Assembly: GCA_027487835.1 (NCBI GenBank)
Contig: JAIYCU010000025.1
Coordinates: 21,890-85,889 of the forward strand
Reading direction: 5' to 3'
Source: Bacteroidota bacterium
Lineage (GTDB): Bacteria > Bacteroidota > Bacteroidia > UKL13-3
Length of the DNA: 64,000 nucleotides
A program made the position numbers and the translations under genes. The notes under the pieces are model-generated. The model was not told where the DNA came from, made no database searches, and saw nothing but the letters and a program-made list of their open reading frames with translations. Positions 52,704 to 56,108 of the stretch are shown one piece after another (within the stretch, counting starts at the first letter, position 1; each line of letters begins with the position of its first letter).

Positions 52704-52752
52704 TTGAGTCACTTCCATTAAGATTCAAAGCCCTTAATGCCTCCGAACATGT

Positions 52753-52768
52753 GTTATGCGAGGATTAA
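52753..52768 (-). repeat. Inverse core (R''-like) end of the toxin-antitoxin cassette; the rest of this attC appears truncated
   Basis: The + strand GTTATGCGAGGATTAA matches the cassette start GTTAGGCGAGAATTAA (minus strand, 53394->53379) at 14/16 positions. Confidence 0.6.
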
Positions 52769-52780
52769 GATATTCAGAAA

Positions 52781-53077
52781 TTAATAAGGTTTTATTTGGT
52801 CATTTCGATTTGCATCCCAAATGGATAATACTATTATTTCATAAGGGTTGAAGTCATAAAATATTAAATAGTCTCGAACAATTTTCACTCTAGTACTTCC
52901 TTCATCAGTTTTCCTTCCAGACTCAGGATATTGGGAGGCTATTTTTATGGCTTCTTTTATCATTTTGTTTAATCGAAGACTATAAGTCTTTGATGAATTT
53001 CTTTCTATCCAATATGATAGAATTTCTAAACGGTCATGATTTGCAGACTTTGTCCAAACTATTTTTCGCCGAGCCAT
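52781..53077 (-). CDS. Type II toxin, RelE/ParE family
   Basis: IVWTKSANHDRLEILSYW...YPESGRKT...RDYLIFY...IVLSIWD, a typical ParE-like pattern, 98 aa. Confidence 0.88.
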   Translation of the reverse strand: MARRKIVWTKSANHDRLEILSYWIERNSSKTYSLRLNKMIKEAIKIASQYPESGRKTDEGSTRVKIVRDYLIFYDFNPYEIIVLSIWDANRNDQIKPY

Positions 53078-53295
53078 TTATCTATTTCTCCATCCGCTGC
53101 TTTCTCATCTAAAATTTCTGAATTCAAATACTCTAATTTAGCCTTTCTGATATGAGACTTCTGTTTGTCGTTCAATTCAAATACTTTTTCTTCCAACTCA
53201 AAATCTAATAGCATTTTTATTTCCTCAATAATACCTGCATCATTGATATCATTGATTTTACTTATTAATTCTGCTTTTAATTCTAGTGCTTTCAT
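53059..53295 (-). CDS. Putative antitoxin (acidic, 78 aa)
   Basis: Small acidic ORF directly upstream of, and overlapping by 19 nt, the RelE/ParE toxin. Confidence 0.75.
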   Translation of the reverse strand: MKALELKAELISKINDINDAGIIEEIKMLLDFELEEKVFELNDKQKSHIRKAKLEYLNSEILDEKAADGEIDKWLGEK

Positions 53296-53311
53296 TGCTT
53301 TCTTATTAATC

Positions 53312-53319
53312 CAAATTTA
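53312..53319 (-). promoter_or_regulatory. -7 element TAAATTTG, the TA module's own promoter
   Basis: TAnnTTTG 16 nt upstream of the antitoxin ATG, inside the cassette. Confidence 0.55.
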
Positions 53320-53387
53320 AAGTATTTTCAGAACTATATAAAAATTATTTATGGAGTTTCAACCTTAAGTAAATTCATTTAATTCTC

Positions 53388-53528
53388 GCCTAACGTTTTT
53401 GGGCTTGGCGAAGGTGGGGTTTAGAAAGTACCAAAGTTCAAATTTAGCACAAAAGCTAATAGAAAGTAGAAATGTCCAGCCTAGTACTAAAGCCCCACTT
53501 TTGCCAAGCCCGTGTTAGCAGCAGCAAT
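53388..53528 (-). mobile_element. attC-like recombination site (integron cassette junction)
   Basis: In gene direction: TGCTAAC (inverse core, 53520->53514) ... GTTAGGC (core GTTRRRY, 53394->53388). Arms GGGCTTGGCGAAGGTGGGGTTTAG (53401-53424) and CTAAAGCCCCACTTTTGCCAAGCCC (53487-53511) pair with two G-T wobbles on the bottom strand and one bulged G (53492). Confidence 0.75.
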
Positions 53529-54401
53529 TCTTTCAGCATCCAACACTTGTATGTCCTCCTATTGGTTTTACTACTTCTCCATTGTTCGCAGGTCTTGACA
53601 AATAAATTGTCGGACTTGTTGCGTTGTAATGTCGTGAAGTATCAATTATTAAATCTAAAATTCCGTCCCCGTCAATGTCGCCTGCAAATATTAGGTTTAT
53701 CATTTGGTCGTCAAAATTTGGTTGGGCAACAAGAAGGCTTGTGTGCTGTTGTCCTTTGATTGTCGCTGTTAAATAAAGTTTGTAATTCCAAACGTCAAAC
53801 CACTCTGGGTCGTCTTCCACTTTCTTTTTACCTCCTGTCGCATATATTTTGTAGTCAATACCTAAATAGTTAATTCGCAAAGTGTCGCCAGGAAAGATTT
53901 GTTCTTTTGATAGAATGGCTTGTTGAACATTATGAGGTGTCAAAAATTTTGAAGCCTCAATTAAAATAATTGAAGTGTCTTTGTTTATGGTTTGAACTTC
54001 CCAACCAGTATTTTCATTTTCATTCTCGTCCACAATTTGGTCATTAACTCTTTTTGTTTTCAGTTTAGTTTCTGCAAGGTAAAAACCTGTCTTGCCTTGA
54101 AAAAGTCCGAACCATTTTTCTTTATCTGCATTTTCCCAAACTTCATCACCGTGAAATGTTCCTACTGTCAATACTTTGATTGAGAAAGTGCTGTCAATAG
54201 GAAAAGAAGAATAGTCGTAGGTGATGGTGTCGTTGTCTGAAGTGTTAGTAACTGCAACGGCATTTGTCAAAGTGTCAACAGTTGAAGTTTTATTTGCAGG
54301 ATTATTCTGTTGGCTTGAATTGTTACAAGCTGTCAGTCCCAAAACTGCAAAGGTCAATGCTAATATTTTCTGTTTAACTGTCGTCATATTGTTGCTGCTA
54401 A
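53394..54401 (-). mobile_element. Integron-like gene cassette (~1.0 kb) carrying one lipoprotein gene
   Basis: Begins G|TTAGCAGCAACAAT-ATG (54402->54385) and ends in the attC whose inverse core reads GTTAGCAGCAGCAAT on + (53514-53528), a 14/15 match. Confidence 0.72.
53533..54387 (-). CDS. Hypothetical lipoprotein (cassette-borne)
   Basis: Lipobox LGLTAC; S/T/N-rich linker; DxDxDG-type motif GDIDGDGILD; ends SVGC. Confidence 0.85.
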   Translation of the reverse strand: MTTVKQKILALTFAVLGLTACNNSSQQNNPANKTSTVDTLTNAVAVTNTSDNDTITYDYSSFPIDSTFSIKVLTVGTFHGDEVWENADKEKWFGLFQGKTGFYLAETKLKTKRVNDQIVDENENENTGWEVQTINKDTSIILIEASKFLTPHNVQQAILSKEQIFPGDTLRINYLGIDYKIYATGGKKKVEDDPEWFDVWNYKLYLTATIKGQQHTSLLVAQPNFDDQMINLIFAGDIDGDGILDLIIDTSRHYNATSPTIYLSRPANNGEVVKPIGGHTSVGC

Positions 54402-54525
54402 CTCATTTATACCCGCATAAAACACTCCCATAGCAAGCCAAATTGGTTCGCTTTGCGCTTAAATTATGCGGATTATTTTTTTTGAGATTAGAAAGGTTTC
54501 TAATTTTCATAAGTTATTGGTTGAG

Positions 54526-54556
54526 CAAAATTATTCGTTTTTGGGTAAAATTACAA
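54526..54556 (-). promoter_or_regulatory. Candidate cassette-driving promoter (TTG-N20-TAATTTTG)
   Basis: Minus-strand TTG at 54556-54554 and TAATTTTG at 54533-54526, pointing into the promoterless cassette. Confidence 0.45.
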
Positions 54557-54585
54557 GCATTTGCAGTACCTCTCCCGGCTAAACT

Positions 54586-54613
54586 ATGGACCATCGTCTA
54601 TCGACCATGGACA
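54586..54613 (+). repeat. Degenerate heptamer tandem repeat, 4 units
   Basis: ATGGACC ATCGTCT ATCGACC ATGGACA. Confidence 0.55.
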
Positions 54614-54701
54614 TATCTTCAAGGACTAAGTTCAAACTATTTACAACAATACCCACACAAAACGTTAATAAAATGCCGCGCAATTGTAACAAACAAGTGC
54701 C

Positions 54702-54709
54702 TATTTTTG
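54702..54709 (+). promoter_or_regulatory. -7 element TATTTTTG upstream of the exonuclease gene
   Basis: TAnnTTTG 7 nt before the TTG start. Confidence 0.5.
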
Positions 54710-54716
54710 AAGCAAT

Positions 54717-56108
54717 TTGTACGCCATAGTCGACATAGAAACCACCGGAGGGCAACCCAATCAGAATAGAATTACTGAACTTTCTATCTATGTGCATGAT
54801 GGCACCCAAGTGATTGAACACTTTGAAACTTTGGTTAATCCAGAGATTCCAATTCCACCCTATATTCAGGCCTTTACAGGTATTACCAATGATATGGTGG
54901 CAAGCGCTCCCACTTTTGCAGCCATTGCCGAAAAAATTTATGAGATTCTTCAAGGTAATATTTTCATTGCCCACAATGTAAATTTCGACCATAGTTTTAT
55001 CAAAAATCAATTGTCGGAAGCTGGGTTCGACCTAAACGTAAAAAAACTTTGCACGGTTAGACTAAGCAGAAAAATTGTTCCGGGCCATCGCTCTTATAGT
55101 CTTGGAAATATATGCGCTGCCCTAGGGATTCGTTTGCACAACAGGCACCGCGCAGGTGGAGATGCCTTAGCTACGGTTAAGTTATTTGAGCATTTGTTGG
55201 CCAATGATACGGAACATCATATTGAAGATTCTTTAAAACGAGGGTCGAAAGAGCAACAACTGCCTGCAAATGTGAGCAAGGCTGATTTTGAAAAATTACC
55301 CAAAATGCCAGGTGTTTATTACTTTGTGAATGAAAATGGATTGGCCATTTATGTAGGTAAAGCCAAAAACATTAAAAGCAGGGTGTCAAGCCATTTTAGC
55401 GGGAATTTAAAGTCGAAGCAAAAGCAAAACTTCATGCGCGATATTCATGGCTTTAGTTTTACTGCTACAGGCAATGAACTATTAGCCATCTTGCTTGAGA
55501 GCCATGAAATTAGAAGACTTTGGCCCAATGAAAATCGCGCTCAAAAAAGAATTAGTCAGGTATATGGGCTCTATGATTATATCGATCAAAACAATAAGAT
55601 AAGATTTGGCGTAGATAAAGTAAGAAAGGAGTTAAAACCCTTGCTCACGTTTGGTTCACATGCTGCGGCTTTACAATACCTCAATCAAATGATTGATGCC
55701 TATGGATTATGTCCAAAACTTTGTAATAGCCAAACCAATCCAGGCACTTGTATCTCTGTTAAAAATGAAATTTGTGATGGTTATTGTTTAGTCCAAGAAA
55801 ATGTTGCTGCCTATAATGCAAAGGCACAGGCCTTTTTTAATCAGTTAACTTTAGAAAAGAAAACTTACTATATTGTAAGCAAAGGTCGCAATTATAAAGA
55901 GCAATCAGTTGTGATATATGAGCCCGGTAATTTTGTAGGGTATACCTTTGTCTCTATTCGTGAGCAAATAGATTTTGACCATGTAAAAGATAGCTGTGAA
56001 GCCTTAAAAATAAACAGCCTAATGGAATCTGTCTTGAGTCAGATAGTAAGTGGCGAGAAAAGTAAAGGATACAAGGTCTACACGCAAATGCGCATGGCTA
56101 TGGATTAA
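54717..56108 (+). CDS. DEDDh 3'-5' exonuclease (DNA pol III epsilon-like) fused to a GIY-YIG (UvrC-like) nuclease
   Basis: TTG start; IVDIETTG, AHNVNFD, HRAGGDA; PGVYYF...IYVGKAKNIKSRVSSHF. Confidence 0.92.
   Translation: MYAIVDIETTGGQPNQNRITELSIYVHDGTQVIEHFETLVNPEIPIPPYIQAFTGITNDMVASAPTFAAIAEKIYEILQGNIFIAHNVNFDHSFIKNQLSEAGFDLNVKKLCTVRLSRKIVPGHRSYSLGNICAALGIRLHNRHRAGGDALATVKLFEHLLANDTEHHIEDSLKRGSKEQQLPANVSKADFEKLPKMPGVYYFVNENGLAIYVGKAKNIKSRVSSHFSGNLKSKQKQNFMRDIHGFSFTATGNELLAILLESHEIRRLWPNENRAQKRISQVYGLYDYIDQNNKIRFGVDKVRKELKPLLTFGSHAAALQYLNQMIDAYGLCPKLCNSQTNPGTCISVKNEICDGYCLVQENVAAYNAKAQAFFNQLTLEKKTYYIVSKGRNYKEQSVVIYEPGNFVGYTFVSIREQIDFDHVKDSCEALKINSLMESVLSQIVSGEKSKGYKVYTQMRMAMD

What the first reader, a model, noticed from the sequence alone, without database searches (positions are those of the whole stretch)
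52753..54402. Integrase-less, integron-like two-cassette array with cassette-specific terminal inverted repeats
Seen: two adjacent units on the minus strand each start at a G|TT core and end in a near-perfect inverted copy of their own start. Cassette A (lipoprotein) has GTTAGCAGCAACAAT (54402->54388) against GTTAGCAGCAGCAAT (53514-53528), 14/15. Cassette B (toxin-antitoxin) has GTTAGGCGAGAATTAA (53394->53379) against GTTATGCGAGGATTAA (52753-52768), 14/16. The two repeats differ from each other, as expected if each cassette brought its own attC ends and recombination occurred at the GTT. Established: integrated integron cassettes show this split attC, with about 7-bp core/inverse-core complementarity. 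Inference: this is a Bacteroidota-type cassette system with unusually long (15-16 bp) end complementarity, inserted between two chromosomal genes, with no recombinase in the window (a CALIN-like arrangement).
Basis: partly seen in the sequence, partly recalled or inferred. Interest (0 to 1): 0.85.

Follow-up and report, generated by a model that had tools for sequence, protein, structure and literature searches.

The report
Integron-like gene cassettes in Bacteroidota
Two small gene units inserted between two housekeeping genes are cassettes of a widespread Bacteroidota system that I found no description of; it shuffles genes at a conserved DNA hairpin like an integron, but its recombinase lacks the segment thought essential for integron-type recombination.

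Summary
Both inverted repeats are at the stated coordinates (14/15 and 14/16).

They are two instances of a family-wide rule. The DNA between the units (53388-53520) is a 133-nt hairpin found in 96 metagenome contigs, about 210 copies, in co-oriented arrays of up to 8-9. Conservation stops exactly at AAC and GTT. The 12 nt after one GTT pair with the 12 nt before the next AAC (mean 9.3/12, n=103). Across one hairpin the figure is 4.8, and for random pairs 4.6.

The stem co-varies (15 of 21 pairs). Invariant G.T wobbles favour the strand antisense to the genes.

The hairpin travels with the gene upstream of it, and the same cassette sits beside different neighbours. The lipoprotein cassette recurs, with identical boundaries, in other genomes. 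One homologue in Flavobacterium algicola is 83% identical. A relative (L001) has an empty site.

Arrays start next to a Xer-like tyrosine recombinase or its remnant. It lacks the IntI-specific insertion, so this is not a classical integron.

Caveats: the window holds one hairpin only, unit B lacks its own, and the outer junctions are unresolved. No recombination was shown experimentally.

The parts
54388..54402 (-). 5' end of cassette A: G|TTAGCAGCAACAAT, immediately followed by the ATG
   Evidence: An identical start, GTTAGCAGCAACAATATGACGACA, occurs in L198/L199. Similarity begins exactly at the GTT.
53533..54387 (-). Cassette A gene: 284-aa lipoprotein of unknown function (signal peptide with lipobox LTAC)
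   Evidence: No Pfam family above cut-off. 260 homologues, up to 83-92% identical across Bacteroidota orders. Confident all-beta model with no PDB neighbour.
53514..53528 (-). 3' inverted copy of cassette A's start. It extends the outer (R-box) stem of the hairpin.
   Evidence: I7, 93%. Pairs 11/12 plus a G.T wobble at position 8 with 54388-54399.
53388..53520 (+). 133-nt attC-like hairpin site of cassette A. The + strand, antisense to the genes, is the folding strand. Layout: TAACG / 4-nt bulge / ~20-bp stem / ~78-nt loop / TGTTA.
   Evidence: Covariance model: 143 bits on +, 28 bits on -. Folding -25.1 kcal/mol, z -3.7. With A's own ends joined, -35.8, z -7.0. Family covariation.
53379..53394 (-). 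5' end of unit B: G|TTAGGCGAGAATTAA
53333..53362 (-). Promoter-like site inside unit B, upstream of the antitoxin (TTGAAA-18-TATAGT)
   Evidence: This is a consensus match only, 10/12.
53059..53295 (-). Unit B gene 1: 78-aa putative antitoxin, overlapping the toxin gene by 19 nt
   Evidence: No Pfam hit. The role is inferred from its position upstream of ParE.
52781..53077 (-). Unit B gene 2: 98-aa ParE-family toxin
   Evidence: PF05016, E 8e-9, above cut-off.
52753..52768 (-). 3' end of unit B: TTAATCCTCGCAT-AAC, the inverted copy of B's start. No hairpin core follows it.
   Evidence: 11/12 with the wobble allowed. No site found by the covariance model or the structure-only scan.
54403..54423 (.). 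Junction outside cassette A: AAC|TCATTTATACCCGCATAAAAC. It resembles the recombinase-proximal (attI-position) junctions of L109 and L172.
   Evidence: TTATAC.CG at the same offset in L109 and L172. Local alignment to L109 P~0.01. This motif comparison was made after seeing the data.
54424..54716 (.). Non-coding remainder of the insert. It holds a weak hairpin (54410-54475) and the direct repeat ATACCCGCATAAAAC (54408-22) / ATACCCACACAAAAC (54652-66). Unexplained.
   Evidence: z about -1. No Rfam family. No recombinase remnant.
52704..52752 (.). 49-nt spacer between the T9SS gene stop codon and unit B's end. Origin (host or insert) is unresolved.
   Evidence: Not alignable with L001.

Best explanation
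The block at about 52.75-54.4 kb is a short, recombinase-less remnant of an integron-like cassette array of a type widespread in Bacteroidota.

Cassette A is complete. It runs from G|TT at 54402, through the lipoprotein gene, to its own 133-nt hairpin site, which ends at the G of GTT at 53394.

Unit B is a ParE toxin-antitoxin pair with its own promoter-like site. It is a second cassette that keeps its cassette-specific ends but has lost, or never brought, its hairpin.

Shown by sequence comparison:
- Sites are conserved hairpins bounded by invariant AACG...TGTT.
- Exchange happens at the GTT that ends each site.
- Each cassette is a gene plus its downstream hairpin.
- The same cassette occurs beside different neighbours and in different genomes.

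Inferred:
- The strand antisense to the genes folds as single-stranded DNA.
- In an excised circle, the cassette's own two ends complete a 15-16-bp outer stem.
- A Xer-like tyrosine recombinase encoded at the head of complete arrays cuts and rejoins at AAC/GTT.
- In this window the recombinase is absent, so the two units are probably immobile unless a copy elsewhere in the genome acts in trans.
- The toxin-antitoxin pair would stabilise the locus.
For: Insertion: relative L001 has the same flanking genes with 89 bp between them, against 2,012 bp in the window. It has none of the three cargo genes.

Family: the hairpin arm pattern hits 96 metagenome contigs. Profile and covariance-model searches give about 210 sites, with 58 loci carrying two or more and none with mixed orientation.

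Packing: median 21 nt from stop codon to AAC, 53 nt from GTT to the next ATG. Median unit 833 bp.

End rule: the two ends of one unit pair at 9.30/12 (n=103). Across one site the figure is 4.84, and for random pairs 4.59. A G.T wobble at position 8 occurs in 74 units and in both window pairs.

Structure: 95.6% of cells paired against 81% in shuffles. 181 double-sided changes against 38. Slid controls reach at most 50% paired. G8.T134 is a wobble in 82/82 copies. The model scores 143 bits on the antisense strand and 28 on the other.

Polarity and mobility: sites sharing the gene-side flank but not the other flank have 97% identical cores (n=10). The reverse case gives 65% (n=3). Unrelated sites give 72%.

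Cassette A elsewhere: L198/L199 have the identical start and end, with a co-varied hairpin and different neighbours. In L196 (Flavobacterium algicola) the homologue is followed by a family hairpin but its boxes have decayed. In L197 it sits inside a co-oriented array of at least 17 ORFs, again with decayed boxes. Lipoprotein identity of 83% across orders contrasts with 46-52% for the adjacent exonuclease.

Recombinase: the outermost cassette boundary is verified 52-134 nt from a recombinase gene in L100 and L106, and from its truncated 3' remnant in L172 and L109. L124/L192 have the same layout, but their first boundary is not verified by end pairing.

Folding: joining A's own ends gives -35.8 kcal/mol (z -7.0), against -25.1 in the array form.
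Against: - No experiment. Excision, circles and strand specificity are all inferred.
- The window has only one hairpin. Unit B lacks its own, which simple integration at GTT does not predict.
- The outer boundaries of the insert cannot be placed to the base.
- None of the window's cargo genes occurs in the 96 repeat-bearing contigs. Unit B was found only at this locus, in the source strain and a ~99% identical strain.
- A recombinase or its remnant was seen in only five of the 96 repeat-bearing contigs, most of which are short. Homologues at ~52% identity (L190, L194/195) have weak or no family hairpins nearby.
- The recombinase lacks the I2-containing insertion held to be required for single-strand hairpin recombination (PMC7790495). 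Either the mechanism differs or another protein part substitutes.
- No extrahelical bases are evident in the inner stem.
Confidence: 0.8

Rival explanations
1. These are ordinary integron cassettes. The hairpins are standard attC sites served by a classical IntI encoded elsewhere in each genome, and the adjacent Xer-like gene is a bystander. The window would be a decayed CALIN.
For: AAC/GTT boxes, hairpin, 133-nt length as in Vibrio VCR2, and G:T bias on the bottom strand all match attC criteria (PMC5027507). Integrons have been reported sporadically in Bacteroidota (PMC8618304, PMC9668308).
Against: Every recombinase hit in 516 kb of array-bearing DNA is the Xer-like type and lies at an array head. 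No IntI-type protein was seen. Integrons are nearly absent from Bacteroidetes in RefSeq surveys (PMC9024848). No extrahelical bases are evident, and the outer stem is 15-16 bp rather than 7.
Confidence: 0.08
2. Exchange is by a Xer-type enzyme acting on double-stranded sites, as at dif or in Acinetobacter pdif modules. It is not on folded single strands, and the hairpin is incidental or regulatory.
For: The recombinase aligns end to end with XerA and lacks the I2 insertion. Crossover at a fixed GTT would also give the own-end rule.
Against: The long stem is conserved as a structure with many compensatory changes. Invariant G.T wobbles make one strand fold much better. All sites in an array share one orientation, unlike the alternating pdif sites. 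No 11-6-11 dif-like core is present.
Confidence: 0.08
3. The 133-nt element is a gene-3' intergenic repeat (REP/MITE-like, or a terminator) that spreads by itself. The flanking inverted repeats are by-products, and the genes do not move as cassettes.
For: The element always lies just after stop codons and is co-oriented with the genes. It is highly conserved in sequence in many copies.
Against: The flanks pair across the gene unit, not across the repeat: 9.3/12 against 4.8/12. The same gene-plus-hairpin unit occurs beside different neighbours, with breakpoints exactly at GTT. The mRNA-sense strand folds worse and no T-run follows the hairpin. No target-site duplications are present.
Confidence: 0.02
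4. Each unit is a small transposon or MITE with 15-16-bp terminal inverted repeats, moved by a transposase acting in trans.
For: Terminal inverted repeats flank each unit.
Against: No target-site duplication at either unit. No transposase in the window. The repeat sequences differ between units, whereas the shared element is the hairpin outside them. The ends always abut AAC/GTT.
Confidence: 0.02

Closest known systems
Sedentary chromosomal integrons (e.g. the Vibrio cholerae superintegron with its VCR attC sites)
   Same: - Chromosomal arrays of compact, co-oriented, mostly promoterless cassettes.
- Each cassette ends in a ~130-nt imperfect hairpin bounded by AAC...GTT, with exchange at GTT.
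- Bottom-strand folding bias through G:T pairs.
- Sites within a lineage are similar in sequence.
- Toxin-antitoxin and defence genes are among the cargo.
   Different: - The recombinase lacks the IntI-specific (I2) insertion and, in most cases, carries a ~265-aa N-terminal extension of three repeated modules.
- It is usually co-oriented with the cassettes.
- The outer stem is cassette-specific and 15-16 bp rather than 7.
- Asymmetry is provided by a one-sided 4-nt bulge, not by extrahelical bases in the L box.
- The hosts are Bacteroidota.
CALIN (cluster of attC sites lacking an integron integrase; IntegronFinder)
   Same: Cassettes and a recombination site with no recombinase nearby. In L172 and L109 the recombinase is visibly truncated, which fits the idea that CALINs are decayed platforms.
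   Different: The window has a single site, below the current two-site threshold. The sites may not be recognised by the standard attC model (not tested).
XerA / XerC / XerD chromosome-dimer resolvases
   Same: Best sequence and structure matches for the catalytic and core-binding domains. The alignment is contiguous, with no insertion.
   Different: The gene sits at the head of cassette arrays rather than acting at a single dif site. It has the extra N-terminal modules. The sites are long hairpins, not a 28-bp duplex dif.
pdif modules of Acinetobacter plasmids
   Same: Small gene modules, often toxin-antitoxin pairs, bounded by inverted recombination half-sites and moved by Xer-type enzymes (from my own knowledge of the literature, not checked here).
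   Different: pdif sites are 28-bp duplex XerC/XerD sites that alternate in orientation. Here the sites are 133-nt co-oriented hairpins with structural covariation.

Membership tests
Integron (classical, IntI-dependent) | Integrase of the IntI clade carrying the additional domain (I2 helix) around patch III | tested here: not met
   There is no recombinase in the window. The array-associated recombinase aligns to VchIntIA in two pieces, with 26 residues facing IntI4 residues 178-246. It aligns contiguously to XerA. TIGR02249 scores 225 bits against a cut-off of 265.
Integron (classical, IntI-dependent) | attC: imperfect hairpin with R boxes containing the conserved AAC/GTT, and crossover in that triplet | tested here: met
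   AACG and TGTT are invariant in 82/82 aligned copies. Conservation and cassette identity break exactly there. The crossover can be placed only to within the invariant triplet.
Integron (classical, IntI-dependent) | attC unpaired features: extrahelical bases, unpaired central spacer, variable terminal structure | tested here: inconclusive
   A variable ~78-nt terminal loop is present. A one-sided 4-nt bulge sits in the spacer position. No bulged bases appear in the consensus inner stem.
Integron (classical, IntI-dependent) | Bottom strand (antisense to cassette genes) folds preferentially, with G:T enrichment | tested here: met
   G8.T134 in 82/82 and G23.T122 in 59/82 copies. 143 against 28 bits. 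-35.8 against -29.9 kcal/mol.
Integron (classical, IntI-dependent) | Arrays of compact co-oriented cassettes, each a gene plus its downstream attC, that are shuffled | tested here: met
Integron (classical, IntI-dependent) | attI site and Pc promoter next to intI | tested here: inconclusive
   Outermost cassette boundaries lie 52-134 nt from the recombinase gene or its remnant. A shared TTATAC.CG motif occurs in L109, L172 and the window. Promoters were not tested.
CALIN (IntegronFinder 2 definition) | At least two attC sites without a nearby integrase | tested here: not met
   One site in 64 kb by covariance model with filters off and by a structure-only scan. Threshold taken from PMC9024848. 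IntegronFinder itself was not run.
IS / MITE with terminal inverted repeats | Target-site duplication flanking the inverted repeats; ends shared among copies | tested here: not met
   No duplication at either unit. End sequences are unit-specific.
Xer/dif-type modules (pdif) | 28-bp XerC-spacer-XerD duplex sites in alternating orientation | tested here: not met
   Sites are 133-nt hairpins, all in one orientation in 58 multi-site loci.
Type II toxin-antitoxin, ParDE-like (unit B) | ParE-fold toxin with a small upstream, overlapping antitoxin gene | tested here: met
   PF05016 above cut-off, with a 78-aa ORF overlapping by 19 nt. Activity was not tested.

The most novel reading that the evidence does not exclude
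Bacteroidota carry their own chromosomal cassette-capture system that recombines folded single-stranded hairpins, as integrons do. Its Xer-type recombinase never acquired the I2 helix, and three N-terminal beta-beta-alpha modules may take over recognition of the hairpin. This would be either an independent invention of integron-style recombination or a surviving early branch of it.
Probability: 0.45. Interest if true: 0.9.

Novelty: new variant of a known kind. Interest (0 to 1): 0.8.

Why it matters
Integrons are the textbook example of gene capture by recombination of folded single-stranded DNA. Current thinking ties that ability to one structural novelty of IntI, the I2 helix (PMC7790495). 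Integrons are also regarded as nearly absent from Bacteroidetes (PMC9024848).

A widespread Bacteroidota system with the same cassette logic but a recombinase lacking that segment would matter in several ways:
- It would make the question of how hairpin recombination evolved directly testable.
- It would add a large, unsurveyed pool of mobile cassettes. The cargo seen here includes toxin-antitoxin pairs, a restriction-modification pair, a TOTE protein, a reverse transcriptase and T9SS-sorted proteins.
- It would explain some assembly breaks and strain-level gene variation in environmental Bacteroidota.
- It would give annotation pipelines a new site model to search with.

Tried and rejected
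- A strict attC-pattern scan (outer box >=6/7 paired) missed even the known site, because outer boxes in arrays are hybrids. A relaxed scan gave only background apart from that site.
- Rfam found no family in 52.5-54.9 kb. The hairpin does not read as a terminator.
- The hairpins at 54410-54475 and 52733-52770 are not significant as attC sites (z about -1). The covariance model finds nothing there.
- No recombinase remnant in 54380-54760. The best tblastn hits have E of 0.05 or worse, are on the wrong strand or are not collinear.
- The window's cargo genes are absent from the 80 orthologous loci and the 96 repeat contigs.
- Exact-protein look-ups of the flanking genes returned only the same strain.
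- The plasmid collection has no copy of the hairpin. The viral contigs have no hairpin arm, toxin or antitoxin.
- No B-type ends occur in any fetched locus.
- L001 intergenic DNA cannot be aligned, so base-level boundaries could not be set.
- Three large protein searches timed out before later ones worked.
- The structure search of the lipoprotein gave no neighbour. The N-terminal recombinase module gave only a sub-threshold DUF5710 hit.
- Five literature searches found no description of this system. The library does not cover most subscription journals.
Full report
OBSERVATION

The two inverted repeats are at the stated coordinates.
- GTTAGCAGCAGCAAT (53514-53528) faces ATTGTTGCTGCTAAC (54388-54402), 14/15. 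This pair brackets a 284-aa lipoprotein ORF on the minus strand.
- GTTATGCGAGGATTAA (52753-52768) faces TTAATTCTCGCCTAAC (53379-53394), 14/16. This pair brackets an overlapping antitoxin/ParE pair (PF05016).

Judged alone they are only marginally unusual. The best 16-mer inverted repeat between gene flanks is 14 for each, against at most 13 for the 35 other genes in the window.

CTAAC is followed by a 22-nt imperfect stem, a 67-nt loop, the return arm and GTTAG (53388-53520). It folds better on the + strand, which is antisense to the genes: -25.1 kcal/mol and z -3.7, against -20.5 and z -1.9.

THE BLOCK IS AN INSERTION

The closest relative in the genome collection is L001, a Chitinophagales-type MAG. 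Its exonuclease is 88% identical and it has the same gene order on both sides. It has 89 bp between the T9SS-sorted gene and the exonuclease gene, where the window has 2,012 bp. It has none of the three cargo genes.

Alignable DNA stops at the T9SS stop codon (52703) and resumes at the exonuclease start (54716). The outer junctions therefore cannot be set to the base from this relative.

THE HAIRPIN IS A WIDESPREAD FAMILY

Logan contigs of the source strain end at 53420 and 53478 in three or four samples. This pointed to a repeated sequence.

A pattern for the hairpin arm found 96 metagenome contigs, where a handful were expected by chance. The whole ~119-nt core is conserved. Conservation ends sharply at ...TAAC on one side and GTTR... 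on the other.

Profile and covariance-model searches give about 210 sites. 58 loci have two or more, up to 8-9 per contig, and orientation is never mixed. Genes run on the strand opposite to the folding strand. The median distance is 21 nt from stop codon to AAC and 53 nt from GTT to the next ATG. The median unit is 833 bp.

The 12 nt after the GTT of one site pair with the 12 nt before the AAC of the next site. These are the two ends of one unit. The mean is 9.30/12 and the median 10 (n=103), with 75% at 9 or more.

The flanks of a single site pair at 4.84/12 and random pairs at 4.59/12. P(>=10) is 0.006.

The usual single mismatch is a G.T wobble at position 8 on the folding strand, seen in 74 units. 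Both window pairs have it. Most of the 7/12 cases are the same pairing with a one-base bulge.

THE HAIRPIN IS CONSERVED AS A STRUCTURE ON ONE STRAND

In 82 distinct copies, AACG and TGTT are invariant. 15 of 21 predicted pairs keep pairing through changes on both sides.
- 95.6% of cells are paired, against 81% in shuffles and at most 50% when partners are slid.
- There are 181 double-sided changes, against 38 in shuffles.
- G8.T134 is a wobble in 82/82 copies and G23.T122 in 59/82.
- A 4-nt bulge lies on one arm only.

The covariance model scores the window site at 143 bits on + and 28 bits on -. This argues against a terminator or mRNA element and for a single-stranded DNA substrate, as described for attC bottom strands (PMC5027507).

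Joining cassette A's own two ends, as in an excised circle, gives one continuous hairpin. It has a 16-bp outer stem, the bulge and a 23-bp inner stem. Its energy is -35.8 kcal/mol with z -7.0. The coding strand gives -29.9.

POLARITY AND MOBILITY

Ten pairs of sites from different contigs share the flank on the gene side (the right flank of the folding strand) but differ on the other flank. Their cores are 97% identical. In the three reverse cases the cores are 65% identical. Unrelated sites are 72% identical.

So the hairpin belongs to the gene upstream of it on the coding strand. The same gene-plus-hairpin unit sits beside different neighbours, and exchange occurs at the GTT that ends the site.

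CASSETTE A ITSELF IS MOBILE

The lipoprotein has 260 homologues. One in Flavobacterium algicola is 83% identical and one in a Bacteroidia MAG 85%. Homologues in Segetibacter and Arcicella are 63-64% identical. The neighbouring exonuclease is only 46-52% identical at such distances.
- L198/L199: the homologue starts with the same GTTAGCAGCAACAAT-ATGACGACA. It ends with the same AAGAATTGCTGCTGCT-AAC, then a co-varied hairpin, then GTT. Similarity to the window begins and ends exactly at the GTTs, and the neighbours differ.
- L197: the homologue lies in a co-oriented array of at least 17 ORFs on a 6.5-Mb contig.
- L196 (F. algicola) and L197: the boxes have decayed (GTT to GTC, AAC lost).

THE RECOMBINASE

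A box-II motif screen and tblastn of the 516 kb screened, which includes the window, found recombinase sequences only at array heads.
- L100 and L124: 536-541-aa genes, co-oriented with the cassettes.
- L106: a 274-aa gene in the classical divergent orientation.
- L172 and L109: only the last 36-49 codons remain.

The outermost cassette boundary is verified by end pairing in L100, L106, L172 and L109. It lies 52-134 nt from the gene or its remnant.

The protein passes NF040815, 'tyrosine recombinase/integron integrase', at 230-232 bits against a cut-off of 220. It fails the classical integron-integrase model, with 225 bits against 265.

Against VchIntIA (2A3V) the alignment splits. 26 residues face IntI4 residues 178-246, the region with the IntI-specific insertion. 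Against XerA it is contiguous. Foldseek ranks XerA and VchIntIA practically equal.

The ~265-aa N-terminal extension is conserved. It is predicted to form three beta-beta-alpha-beta-beta-alpha modules with a W..W.IP motif, and it has no family assignment.

The family is large and full-length conserved. Sources name it XerD or site-specific integrase, from Bacteroidota hosts, and none calls it an integron integrase.

It is chromosomal. It follows murB, alaS or an ornithine decarboxylase gene and is followed by co-oriented small ORFs. L192 has two strong family sites downstream.

THE WINDOW IN DETAIL

There is one hairpin only in 64 kb, and it belongs to cassette A.

Unit B has family-type ends (10/12 plus the wobble) and its own promoter-like site, but no hairpin follows its ...AAC at 52753.

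Outside cassette A's start, the junction reads AAC|TCATTTATACCCG. It shares TTATAC.CG at the same offset with the recombinase-proximal junctions of L109 and L172. I made this comparison after seeing the data, and the local alignment gives P of about 0.01. No recombinase remnant is detectable.

My reading is that this is the head end of an array that has lost its recombinase, as L172 and L109 are visibly doing. Direct capture of A plus B at a secondary site is not excluded. The missing hairpin of B and the 54424-54716 stretch remain unexplained.

COMPARISON WITH WHAT IS KNOWN

Functionally this matches a sedentary chromosomal integron.

As membership, the IntI-specific domain was tested and is absent. 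Extrahelical bases are not evident, the outer stem is twice the usual length, and the window falls below the CALIN threshold of two sites (PMC9024848).

Surveys find integrons nearly absent from Bacteroidetes (PMC9024848). The I2 helix is regarded as the innovation that enabled single-strand recombination (PMC7790495). Five literature searches found no description of this system, but the library is incomplete.

VERDICT

The finding opens onto a family-level system that I rate as a new variant of a known kind, with high interest. All mechanistic steps beyond sequence comparison are inference.

Noticed in passing
window 53420 and 53478 (loci L081-L086, L090-L093): Logan contigs of the source strain from three or four sequencing runs stop at exactly these two positions, the shoulders of the hairpin loop. 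This fits a multi-copy hairpin whose arms are shared but whose loop differs, so the source genome or community probably holds more copies.
   Followed up: partly
window 53533-54387; homologues P0121-P0240: The cassette A lipoprotein belongs to a family of about 260 proteins with no Pfam family. The predicted all-beta fold is confident (core pLDDT above 90) and has no significant PDB neighbour. It is conserved at 80-92% identity across distant Bacteroidota.
   Followed up: partly
window 54408-54422 and 54652-54666; also 52750-52768: A direct repeat, ATACCCGCATAAAAC / ATACCCACACAAAAC, lies 244 bp apart in the non-coding part of the insert. Unit B's outer end is the inverted complement of the first copy (79% over 19 nt). 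Meaning unknown.
   Followed up: partly
P0001 / L124 4816-6441, residues 1-265: The N-terminal extension of the array-associated recombinase consists of three repeated ~60-residue beta-beta-alpha-beta-beta-alpha modules with invariant tryptophans (W..W.IP). The only family hit is a sub-threshold match to DUF5710.
   Followed up: partly
L106 2186-3010: A short (274-aa) relative of the recombinase lacks the N-terminal modules. It sits in the classical divergent orientation, 52 nt from the first cassette boundary. At least two recombinase architectures therefore serve these arrays.
   Followed up: partly
L172 11741-11887 and L109 3403-3510: Only the last 36-49 codons of the recombinase gene remain next to otherwise intact first cassettes. 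This shows recurrent loss of the recombinase by truncation.
   Followed up: partly
L166 10617-13269; L112 385-3357; L192 16880-21202; L124 4141-4774: Array-linked genes with a defence-like flavour: a PstI-type restriction-modification pair lying between two sites in L166; a TOTE conflict-system protein just upstream of the first detected site in L112; a reverse transcriptase with a SACS-domain protein after the last detected site in L192; and a HigB/Gp49-HTH toxin-antitoxin pair next to the recombinase in L124.
   Followed up: no
L197 1-361: An IS110-family transposase gene lies at the edge of the large cassette array that contains the lipoprotein homologue. IS110/IS1111 elements are known to target attC sites in integrons (from my own knowledge, not checked here).
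   Followed up: no
L098 1333, L138 856, L100 7176, window 54402: Unrelated cassettes share similar 5' leaders of the form GTTAGCnGCAA...(ATG/TAG)ACGACAG. Position by position there is a weak GTT-A-nnn-GCAA signature after the crossover site. It could be a recombinase contact or a translation signal.
   Followed up: no
L194/L195 (contig ends about 1.6 kb after the recombinase gene): 100-kb contigs from two independent assemblies end shortly after the recombinase gene. This may mean that arrays of this kind break assemblies and are under-represented in MAGs.
   Followed up: no
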